Under the pieces are notes generated by a model that was not told the DNA's origin, ran no database searches, and was given only the letters and a program-made list of their open reading frames with translations. DNA of 14,368 nt. Source: a virus. The stretch is taken from UHGV virus genome UHGV-0068104; one strand, written 5' to 3'. Below are positions 11,173 through 12,068 of the stretch, one piece after another (within the stretch, counting starts at the first letter, position 1; every line of letters begins with the position of its first letter). The position numbers and the translations under genes were made by a program.

Positions 11173-12068
11173 CAGAGCGTGAACTGTCCATTATCCGTGC
11201 GCTGGGTGAAGAATTCTCCACAGTGCTGGCGGATTTACAGCGCACATTTGAGGGGAAAATAGCCGCGCAGGCACAAATGTTTGAAGAAAAACTGGCTTCC
11301 CTGTCTGTGGTATTACAGAAGTGCGTGACGGGCGATGATGTGCGTCCGATGCTTGAGCAGATGGTGAAGGAGGCTGTAAGCCATATTCCTGTTCCGCGTG
11401 ATGGTCGTGATTATGATCCGGATGTACTGCAGCAGGCGGTGAATGATGCGGTTGCGAATATTCCGGTACCGGCGGACGGCAAAAGTATCACCCCCGATGA
11501 TGTGCGTCCGATGCTTGAGCAGATGGTGAAAGAGGCCGTAAGTCATATCCCAGTCCCGCGTGATGGTCGTGACTACGATCCGGATGTACTGCAGCAGGCG
11601 GTGAATGATGCGGTGAGTGCCCTGCCGGTTCCGCAGGACGGGCGTGATGCCACGGCACTGGAAATACTCCCCGCCATTGACGATCAAAAATCCTTTCCCC
11701 GGGGCACGTATGCCACACACCAGGGCGGACTCTGGCGGGCGTATGAAAAAACGCACGGGATGCGGGGATGGGAATGCCTGGTTGACGGGGTGGCGGATAT
11801 TGACGTCAGCATGATTAGTGAACGGTCGTTCTCTGTGGTGATCCGGCAGAGCAGTGGCCAGTGTACGGAAAAAACATTTTCCCTGCCGGTGATGCTCTAC
11901 CGCGGTGTGTTCAGAGCCGGTGAAACCTACCACCCCGGCGATACGGTGACGTGGGGGGGCTCGCTGTGGCACTGCAACAGTATGACCGAAGATAAACCCG
12001 GAGAAGCTCATTCATCAGCCTGGACCCTGGCTGCAAAACGTGGGCGGGATGCAGGAGGCGGAAAATGA
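11169..12068 (+). CDS. Head-module protein of unknown function with internal tandem repeat and Trp/Cys-containing C-terminal region
   Basis: 299-aa ORF translationally coupled on both sides (ATGA overlaps); N-terminal coiled-coil-like segment; two 54-aa tandem repeats; four (I/L)PVPxDG(R/K)(D/S) motifs; C-terminal region GETYHPGDTVTWGGSLWHCNSMTEDKPGEAHSSAWTLAAKRG loosely resembles small carbohydrate-binding modules. Confidence 0.75.
   Translation: MTERELSIIRALGEEFSTVLADLQRTFEGKIAAQAQMFEEKLASLSVVLQKCVTGDDVRPMLEQMVKEAVSHIPVPRDGRDYDPDVLQQAVNDAVANIPVPADGKSITPDDVRPMLEQMVKEAVSHIPVPRDGRDYDPDVLQQAVNDAVSALPVPQDGRDATALEILPAIDDQKSFPRGTYATHQGGLWRAYEKTHGMRGWECLVDGVADIDVSMISERSFSVVIRQSSGQCTEKTFSLPVMLYRGVFRAGETYHPGDTVTWGGSLWHCNSMTEDKPGEAHSSAWTLAAKRGRDAGGGK
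11334..11657 (+). repeat. Tandem duplication, 2 x 162 bp, inside the 299-aa gene
   Basis: Copy 1 11334-11495, copy 2 11496-11657; the first 120 nt of each copy encode identical 40-aa segments (DDVRPMLEQMVKEAVSHIPVPRDGRDYDPDVLQQAVNDAV) with 9 nucleotide differences, all synonymous; the last 42 nt diverge. Confidence 0.9.

What the first reader, a model, noticed from the sequence alone, without database searches (positions are those of the whole stretch)
11334..11657. 162-bp tandem duplication whose copies differ only at synonymous sites
Within the 299-aa head-module gene, two adjacent 162-bp copies encode identical 40-aa cores. The nine nucleotide differences in the first 120 nt are all synonymous third-position changes, clustered in the middle of the unit, while the repeat tails have diverged. 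This implies strong purifying selection on both copies after duplication, or selection for nucleotide divergence that reduces recombinational deletion while keeping the protein repeat.
Basis: seen in the sequence. Interest (0 to 1): 0.6.

Follow-up and report, generated by a model that had tools for sequence, protein, structure and literature searches.

The report
Variable repeat array in portal-adjacent phage gene
The two 162-bp copies are real and differ only silently in their cores, but they are two units of a common, copy-number-variable repeat in a prophage virion gene kept by ordinary purifying selection, not a special anti-recombination design.

Summary
Window 11334-11453 and 11496-11615 encode the same 40 residues and differ at nine third-codon positions, all synonymous (dS 0.45, dN 0; chance about 1e-6 to 1e-5). 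The 14-codon tails differ.

It is not an isolated duplication. The 299-aa ORF (11169-12068) follows the portal gene of an EHEC-type lambdoid prophage. In relatives the 54-aa unit occurs 1, 2, 3, 4, 5 or 7 times.

- All nine sites are standing synonymous polymorphisms among 78 distinct unit cores (variation at codon positions 1/2/3 = 82/70/503).
- Copy 2 carries last-unit-specific states, so the two copies are positional paralogues (first and last unit).
- Adjacent units elsewhere are often nucleotide-identical, and Klebsiella and Pantoea arrays are homogenised. The idea of selection for nucleotide divergence is therefore not supported.

Best reading: a minisatellite-like in-frame array evolving by unequal recombination and gene conversion under purifying selection. 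It probably forms a length-variable helical stalk that carries a CBM5/12-like C-terminal module.

Side finding: a G5/G6 tract decides whether this ORF is separate from the portal gene or fused to it. RefSeq labels the split form a pseudogene.

Ordinary; low to moderate interest.

The parts
11334..11453 (+). Core of repeat unit 1 (40 codons). It is the first unit of the array.
   Evidence: Its closest relative is an internal unit found in 4 other loci, 2 nt away.
11496..11615 (+). Core of repeat unit 2 (40 codons). It is the last unit of the array. The amino acids are identical to unit 1, with 9 synonymous differences.
   Evidence: The G at the last core position occurs only in last units of other arrays. 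It carries rare codon variants: AGT in 8/78, CCA in 2/78 and GTC in 1/78 distinct cores.
11454..11495 (+). Internal-type tail/linker of unit 1 (ANIPVPADGKSITP).
   Evidence: The same linker type joins units in all longer arrays.
11616..11657 (+). Terminal-type tail of unit 2 (SALPVPQDGRDATA), leading into the C-terminal domain.
   Evidence: It differs by 1 nt from the tail of the one-unit form L088.
11169..12068 (+). ORF X, 299 aa. It consists of an N-terminal helix, 2 x 54-aa units and a conserved C-terminal domain. Databases label it 'phage portal protein', but it has no portal domain.
11169..11333 (+). N-terminal long alpha-helix (aa 1-55).
   Evidence: The AlphaFold2 model has a helix at residues 3-49 with pLDDT 72-80.
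11658..12065 (+). Conserved C-terminal beta-rich domain. Roughly its last 50 residues (about 11895-12047) are CBM5/12-like.
   Evidence: Most of the invariant columns fall in this domain. Pfam CBM_5_12 matches aa 249-271 at E 1.7e-4, below the curated cut-off. Foldseek finds chitin-binding domains and phage collagen-repeat fibre proteins.
9808..11172 (+). HK97-type portal gene (454 aa). Its stop codon overlaps the start of ORF X.
   Evidence: Pfam Phage_portal at E 5e-81 and TIGR01537 at E 2.7e-105.
11153..11157 (+). G5 tract near the 3' end of the portal gene. Relatives with G6 have the portal gene and ORF X fused in frame.
   Evidence: Junction haplotypes are listed. Fused stop-free stretches of 791-1028 aa appear. 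PHROG 2271 has a profile of 859 positions that spans both proteins.
11169..11172 (+). ATGA start/stop overlap between the portal gene and ORF X.
   Evidence: The same overlap is present in the Klebsiella and Pantoea loci.

Best explanation
The two copies are the first and last units of an in-frame, minisatellite-like array of a 54-aa module. Each module is two helix-plus-(I/L)PVPxDG half-units. The array lies in a virion-module protein encoded directly after the portal gene of an EHEC-type lambdoid (HK97-like) prophage. It grows, shrinks and is partly homogenised by unequal homologous recombination and gene conversion. These events occur within a phage genome and among the many related prophages that share E. 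coli hosts. The amino-acid sequence is held by purifying selection. The nine silent differences are standing synonymous polymorphisms of this unit pool that happen to distinguish the two positional paralogues. The identical 5' block is conserved in all units, and the identical 3' block looks like a local conversion tract. Those points are shown by the data. The functional reading is inferred: the array probably acts as a length-variable, mostly alpha-helical stalk or spacer between an N-terminal attachment helix and a C-terminal CBM5/12-like glycan-binding domain, so copy number tunes reach rather than chemistry.
For: - **Copy number.** It varies among close relatives. ORFs of 299, 353, 405/407, 461 and 569 aa correspond to 2, 3, 4, 5 and 7 units in 80 IMG/VR loci (9, 23, 41, 5 and 2 loci). 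Many 245-aa one-unit forms also exist.
- **Unequal crossing-over.** One-unit and some two-unit forms carry chimeric NDAV-SALP junctions, as unequal crossing-over would produce.
- **Purifying selection across the family.** 78 distinct cores show variation of 82/70/503 at codon positions 1/2/3, with pS 0.277, pN 0.045 and ratio 0.16. All nine window sites are polymorphic in the family in many haplotype combinations, and the G at the last site is specific to last units.
- **Concerted evolution.** Adjacent internal units differ by 4.5 nt on average and 8 of 39 pairs are identical. Adjacent pairs average 8.7 differences against 11.3 between arrays. Klebsiella and Pantoea arrays are 157/162 and 162/162 identical within themselves yet differ from the E. 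coli units.
- **Mosaic pattern.** Eight of the nine differences lie within 46 nt (P 0.013). The first 11 codons are almost invariant in all units, even at silent sites.
- **Substrate for exchange.** The gene is present in 1246 of 5426 complete E. coli genomes, with a median of 4 places and a maximum of 26.
- **Coding strand.** All nine changes alter the antisense ORF's amino acids, so the + frame is the constrained one.
- **Function.** The family is very large (5732 cluster representatives), with variable repeat counts and a conserved C-terminal domain. One relative has collagen G-X-Y repeats in place of some helix-linker units. AlphaFold2 gives helix-linker-helix-linker per unit plus a beta-rich C-terminal domain. 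Foldseek matches CBM5/12 chitin-binding domains and phage collagen-repeat fibre proteins.
Against: - Zero non-synonymous changes alongside nine synonymous ones is extreme even for this family. Only 4 of 2850 core pairs have no non-synonymous difference and at least 9 synonymous ones. At the family ratio about five replacements would be expected. Part of this is ascertainment, because the pair was picked for being striking.
- Copy 2 has no close match among the fetched units (nearest 7 nt away), so its donor lineage is not identified.
- The contig is a low-coverage metagenome assembly, so the two units might not sit on one molecule.
- The functional part is weak. The repeat region of the model has pLDDT 36-56. 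CBM_5_12 is below the Pfam cut-off. Foldseek E-values against the PDB are only 0.04-0.1. No virion localisation data were found.
- Fusion to the portal C-terminus, which in portals of known structure faces the capsid interior (my own knowledge, not tested here), sits awkwardly with an external fibre.
Confidence: 0.78

Rival explanations
1. Second-order selection for nucleotide divergence: silent recoding of the unit cores is favoured because it lowers RecA/Red-mediated deletion while keeping the protein repeat.
For: The central patch is nearly saturated at silent sites: 8 differences over about 11 synonymous sites, with no replacement. None of the nine two-unit arrays examined has nucleotide-identical units.
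Against: Eight of 39 adjacent internal pairs are identical, and adjacent pairs are more alike than random pairs. Pantoea and Klebsiella arrays are 162/162 and 157/162 identical. Copy number ranges from 1 to 7, and deletion chimeras are common and evidently tolerated. Identical runs of 35 and 38 nt remain between the two copies, which is enough for homologous exchange. The divergence in two-unit arrays is explained by first and last units being positional paralogues.
Confidence: 0.07
2. Assembly artefact: the metagenome assembler collapsed a longer array, or threaded units from different co-resident prophages into one contig.
For: The contig is a short-read assembly at coverage 5.9. E. coli genomes carry a median of 4 places for this gene and up to 26. 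The exact protein occurs on only this one contig, and the best complete-genome match is 95.6%. Many database entries for this gene are 'partial', on short contigs.
Against: Sequencing errors would not all be synonymous. Two-unit arrays with mostly silent core differences exist in a complete genome (7 synonymous and 2 non-synonymous codon differences) and in phage records. The reading frame and flanks are intact. A chimera would change which molecule carries the units but not the selective pattern.
Confidence: 0.12
3. A recent simple duplication followed by neutral drift, or constraint from an overlapping antisense gene or a nucleic-acid structure rather than from the protein.
For: A 232-aa antisense ORF (11313-12011) overlaps the repeat.
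Against: Neutral drift would give nine of nine silent changes with probability about 1e-6 to 1e-5. All nine changes hit codon position 1 of the antisense ORF and alter its amino acids. The longest antisense stop-free stretch shrinks to 129-176 aa in the Klebsiella and Pantoea loci. No inverted repeats were found in the region.
Confidence: 0.02

Closest known systems
In-frame tandem-repeat (minisatellite/VNTR-type) arrays in phage and bacterial surface or structural proteins, for example the BACON-domain tandem repeats of crAss-like phages (PMC6949934, title and abstract seen)
   Same: The units are head to tail and in frame. Copy number is polymorphic among close relatives. Internal units are homogenised while terminal units diverge. 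The protein sequence is conserved.
   Different: The unit here is a 54-aa helix-linker pair rather than a globular domain. The array sits in a portal-adjacent protein of lambdoid prophages, and it draws on many paralogous prophage copies per host genome.
Collagen-repeat or coiled-coil phage fibre proteins with a C-terminal CBM5/12-like module (BFVD entries labelled 'Collagen triple helix repeat' and 'Tail protein')
   Same: They share the architecture of a repetitive, length-variable stalk followed by a small C-terminal beta module of the same fold. One relative of this ORF carries true G-X-Y repeats.
   Different: The stalk repeat here is an alpha-helix plus a PVPxDG linker, not a collagen triple helix. 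The gene lies between the portal and head-tail adaptor genes, not in the tail-fibre region. The oligomeric state is unknown.
HK97-type phage portal protein (PF04860 / TIGR01537), which is the label databases give this ORF
   Same: It is encoded immediately downstream of the portal gene and translationally coupled to it. It is fused to the portal gene in about a third of related loci and in one distant relative.
   Different: The ORF itself has no portal domain. The label is inherited from the fused forms.

Membership tests
In-frame tandem-repeat array evolving by unequal recombination and concerted evolution | Head-to-tail units whose length is a multiple of three, in one reading frame | tested here: met
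   Period 162 nt = 54 codons, in the frame of ORF 11169-12068.
In-frame tandem-repeat array evolving by unequal recombination and concerted evolution | Copy-number polymorphism among close relatives | tested here: met
   1, 2, 3, 4, 5 and 7 units. Record spans of 900, 1062, 1224 and 1386 nt in complete genomes.
In-frame tandem-repeat array evolving by unequal recombination and concerted evolution | Units within an array or lineage are more alike than units between arrays or lineages, and internal units are more homogenised than terminal ones | tested here: met
   Adjacent pairs average 8.7 differences against 11.3 between arrays; internal-internal pairs average 4.5, with 8 of 39 identical. Klebsiella and Pantoea arrays are homogenised.
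In-frame tandem-repeat array evolving by unequal recombination and concerted evolution | Chimeric units at junctions, as expected from unequal crossing-over | tested here: met
   The one-unit forms P0033, P0059 and P0064, and window unit 2, join an internal- or first-type core (…NDAV) to the terminal tail (SALP…).
Carbohydrate-binding module family 5/12 (PF02839) | Sequence score at or above the Pfam gathering cut-off | tested here: not met
   22.0 bits against a cut-off of 26.2, E 1.7e-4, aa 249-271. Relatives score 20.5-25.1 bits.
Carbohydrate-binding module family 5/12 (PF02839) | Small beta fold superposable on solved chitin-binding domains | tested here: inconclusive
   Foldseek: 2d49 with target TM-score 0.70 and rmsd 1.9 A over 47 columns; ChiB 1e15; 7b5h_AE. 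Probability is 1.0 but E is only 0.04-0.1. A profile search against PDB sequences gives E 0.0011 to 7b5h_AE and 0.063 to 2d49.
Carbohydrate-binding module family 5/12 (PF02839) | Binding of chitin, peptidoglycan or another glycan | not testable with these tools
   Needs a binding assay.
Phage portal protein (PF04860 / TIGR01537) | Portal domain present in the protein | tested here: not met
   ORF X has no portal-domain match in Pfam or NCBIfam. The upstream ORF 9808-11172 has it.
Programmed -1 ribosomal frameshift joining two ORFs (as in tail chaperones G/GT) | Canonical X XXY YYZ slippery heptamer at the overlap, with the downstream frame open upstream of its ATG, conserved in relatives | tested here: not met
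   There is only a G5 run and an A4 run and no canonical heptamer. In Klebsiella a TAA lies directly upstream of the ATG in the ORF X frame and there is no G run. Frameshifting itself is not testable here.
MuF / SPP1 gp7-like portal-adjacent minor head proteins (PF04233) | Phage_Mu_F domain | tested here: not met
   No such match in the Pfam scan at E <= 0.01.

The most novel reading that the evidence does not exclude
In minimal two-unit arrays, silent recoding of the central core patch (8 changes over about 11 silent sites with no amino-acid change) is itself selected because it slows collapse to the one-unit form. The array would then persist through second-order selection for stability. A further reading, not excluded either, is that the nearby G5/G6 tract acts as a recurrent switch that decides whether the repeat-bearing, glycan-binding protein is made free or tethered to the portal.
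Probability: 0.08. Interest if true: 0.6.

Novelty: new member of a known kind. Interest (0 to 1): 0.3.

Why it matters
The result turns a striking local pattern into an ordinary one: a protein-coding minisatellite under purifying selection, fed by recombination among co-resident prophages. It has three practical consequences. First, this repeat and its multi-copy context probably contribute to broken or collapsed short-read assemblies of EHEC prophages; many database entries for the gene are partial, on short contigs. Second, RefSeq labels the ORF 'phage portal protein' and marks the split arrangement as a frameshifted pseudogene, although the split form is the one conserved in Klebsiella and Pantoea. 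Third, the ORF belongs to a very large, functionally uncharacterised, portal-linked phage family with a variable stalk and a CBM5/12-like tip, which would be worth locating in a virion.

Tried and rejected
- Tandem Repeats Finder did not report the 162-nt array. The repeat finder and direct offset counting did.
- Antisense ORF 11313-12011 as the constrained frame: rejected, because all nine changes are non-synonymous there.
- Neutral drift after duplication: rejected, P about 1e-6 to 1e-5.
- Selection for nucleotide divergence: not supported.
- A programmed frameshift between the portal gene and ORF X: considered because of the G5 and A4 runs. There is no canonical slippery site and the feature is not conserved in Klebsiella.
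- MuF/gp7-like identity: no domain match.
- NCBIfam gave nothing for ORF X.
- PDB sequence searches gave only marginal hits: All3316 and designed helical repeat proteins, the latter probably compositional.
- The second homology search, with a diverse profile, returned mostly the same multi-repeat E. coli and Klebsiella proteins and added little diversity for the structure alignment.
- Three literature searches found no paper on this protein or its repeat. Asadulghani et al. 2009 (PMC2669165) only tabulates 'Portal' as defective in several Sakai prophages, with no detail in the passages retrieved.
- PF28083, precomputed for some relatives, is not in the local Pfam copy, so its definition could not be checked.

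Full report
**1. The observation**

The region was read directly. A direct repeat with start-to-start spacing of 162 nt lies at 11333-11452 / 11495-11614, at 93% identity. At offset 162, 131 of 162 bases match, against 25-57 at neighbouring offsets.

In the frame of the 299-codon ORF 11169-12068, codons 56-95 and 110-149 encode the same 40 residues. The two stretches differ at nine nucleotides, all third-position and all synonymous. The last 14 codons of the two units differ strongly (pS 0.60, pN 0.50).

By the Nei-Gojobori method the core has 26.7 synonymous and 93.3 non-synonymous sites, giving dS 0.45 and dN 0. Nine of nine silent changes has probability about 1e-6 to 1e-5 under neutrality. 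Eight of the nine differences fall within 46 nt (P 0.013).

**2. Context**

The window is the late-gene module of an HK97-like lambdoid prophage. Its genes run in this order:

- large terminase, 5934-7595
- protease-capsid fusion, 7659-9596
- portal, 9808-11172
- the 299-aa ORF, here called X
- head-tail adaptor, head closure, gp10-like and tail completion proteins
- tail tube protein with an Ig-like domain

The DNA of X matches 92 phage records at 90-95% identity. Most are Stx1a/Stx2-converting phages and PPompW prophages of EHEC. X also matches 1246 of 5426 complete E. coli genomes, with a median of 4 places per positive genome and a maximum of 26. The exact protein is on one contig only, a 20.8-kb short-read metagenome contig at coverage 5.9.

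**3. The repeat is an array with variable copy number**

In 80 IMG/VR loci the ORF is 299, 353, 405/407, 461 or 569 aa long. These lengths correspond to 2, 3, 4, 5 or 7 units, found in 9, 23, 41, 5 and 2 loci (the 2-unit count includes the window). The protein database also holds many 245-aa one-unit forms.

Some one-unit forms join a first- or internal-type core (…QQAVNDAV) directly to the terminal tail (SALPAPQ…). This is what unequal crossing-over between units would produce. Window unit 2 has the same chimeric make-up.

Each 54-aa unit is itself two half-units: a helix followed by (I/L)PVPxDG(R/K). More distant relatives have many single half-units of roughly that length.

**4. Where the nine differences come from**

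Among 78 distinct cores of this type, variation at codon positions 1/2/3 is 82/70/503. The mean pS is 0.277, the mean pN is 0.045 and the ratio is 0.16.

Every one of the nine sites is polymorphic in the family, in many haplotype combinations. The G at the last site occurs only in last units. Copy 1 is 2 nt from an internal unit found in four other loci. Copy 2 has no neighbour closer than 7 nt and carries rare codon variants.

The two copies are therefore the first and last units of an array, not fresh duplicates of each other.

The identical first 35 nt are nearly invariant in all units, even at silent sites. The identical block at core nt 81-118 differs between first and last units in other alleles, so it looks like a local conversion tract in this allele.

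A complete-genome two-unit array (STEC17-183) shows 7 synonymous and 2 non-synonymous codon differences. The window pair is the extreme of a general pattern: only 4 of 2850 core pairs have no replacement together with at least 9 silent differences.

**5. Test of the anti-recombination idea**

- Adjacent cores within arrays differ by 8.7 nt on average, against 11.3 for cores from different arrays.
- Adjacent internal units differ by 4.5 nt on average, and 8 of 39 such pairs are identical (per-array list).
- The Pantoea and Klebsiella homologues carry three units that are 162/162 and 157/162 identical at the DNA level, yet differ from the E. coli units.

This is concerted evolution, not enforced divergence. 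The two window copies also keep identical runs of 35 and 38 nt.

**6. Other rivals**

All nine differences fall on codon position 1 of the overlapping antisense ORF (11313-12011) and change its amino acids. The longest antisense stop-free stretch shortens to 129-176 aa in the Klebsiella and Pantoea loci. The constraint therefore acts on the + frame.

Sequencing error cannot give nine silent changes. Collapse or chimerism of the contig cannot be excluded, but it would not alter the selective pattern.

**7. What the protein is**

X has no portal domain. It is called 'phage portal protein' because fused forms exist.

The family is very large: 5732 representatives of 50%-identity clusters at E <= 1e-3. 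Lengths among the 150 best hits are 123-1237 aa, with up to 11 matched stretches. Members share an N-terminal helix, a variable repeat region and a strongly conserved C-terminal domain.

In one relative some repeats are replaced by collagen G-X-Y repeats. In others the repeats are LPEPEPLPDI-type.

AlphaFold2 was run on a 15-sequence alignment and gave a mean pLDDT of 58:

- The N-terminal helix spans residues 3-49.
- Each unit has two helices joined by extended proline-rich linkers, at pLDDT 36-56. This is not a discrete globular domain.
- The C-terminal domain is beta-rich, at pLDDT 67-88.

The last 50 or so residues superpose on CBM5/12 chitin-binding domains (2d49: target TM-score 0.70, rmsd 1.9 A), but at marginal E-values. 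They also resemble the C-terminal modules of phage proteins annotated with collagen triple-helix repeats. Pfam CBM_5_12 is below its cut-off.

I infer a length-variable stalk that presents a glycan-binding tip. This is not shown by the data.

**8. Noticed: the portal-X junction**

In the window the portal stop and the X start overlap as ATGA (11169-11172), and a G5 tract lies at 11153-11157. Related loci with G6, about 26 of 81, read through as a portal-X fusion. G5 and G6 occur on at least three junction haplotypes that are otherwise identical.

A distant relative of 1237 aa is also a portal fusion.

Klebsiella and Pantoea keep the split form with the same ATGA overlap. Klebsiella has a stop codon in the X frame directly upstream of the ATG.

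RefSeq annotates the split form as a 'frameshifted' portal pseudogene.

**9. Verdict**

Purifying selection is supported. Selection for nucleotide divergence is not supported. The feature is a member of a known kind, a protein-coding tandem-repeat array under concerted evolution, in a poorly characterised portal-linked phage protein family.

Noticed in passing
window 11153-11172: A G5 tract lies 12 nt before the portal stop codon. Related loci with G6 (about 26 of 81) fuse the portal gene and the repeat-bearing ORF in frame. G5 and G6 occur on at least three otherwise identical junction haplotypes, which suggests a recurrent indel. A distant 1237-aa relative is also a portal fusion.
   Followed up: partly
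L084 1140-3400; L090 440-2862; L091 440-3186: RefSeq/PGAP annotates the split portal + ORF X arrangement as a single 'frameshifted' portal pseudogene. The split form with the ATGA overlap is nevertheless conserved in Klebsiella and Pantoea and is the majority form in E. coli prophages.
   Followed up: partly
window 11334-11368 and 11496-11530, and the same positions of units in L001-L083: The first 11 codons of every 54-aa unit are almost invariant across 78 distinct unit cores, even at synonymous sites, while codons 11-30 are highly polymorphic. This 35-nt identity block could be the preferred site of unequal exchange.
   Followed up: partly
window 11313-12011 (- strand): A 232-aa antisense ORF covers the repeat. 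It is a shadow ORF: all nine inter-copy differences change its amino acids, and the longest antisense stop-free stretch is shorter in the Klebsiella and Pantoea loci.
   Followed up: yes
window 5817-5870: A 27-nt unit (AAAAGGGGATACCGCGAAAAAAGCGGC) is repeated twice in tandem, at 85% identity, just upstream of the large terminase start at 5934.
   Followed up: no
window 13602-14318: The tail tube protein carries a C-terminal immunoglobulin-like domain (Pfam Ig_3, Ig_2 and I-set, aa 149-227).
   Followed up: no
window 9641-9862: A 73-aa ORF overlaps the portal start by 55 nt. It is annotated as a hypothetical protein in several related records (for example L001 757-978).
   Followed up: no
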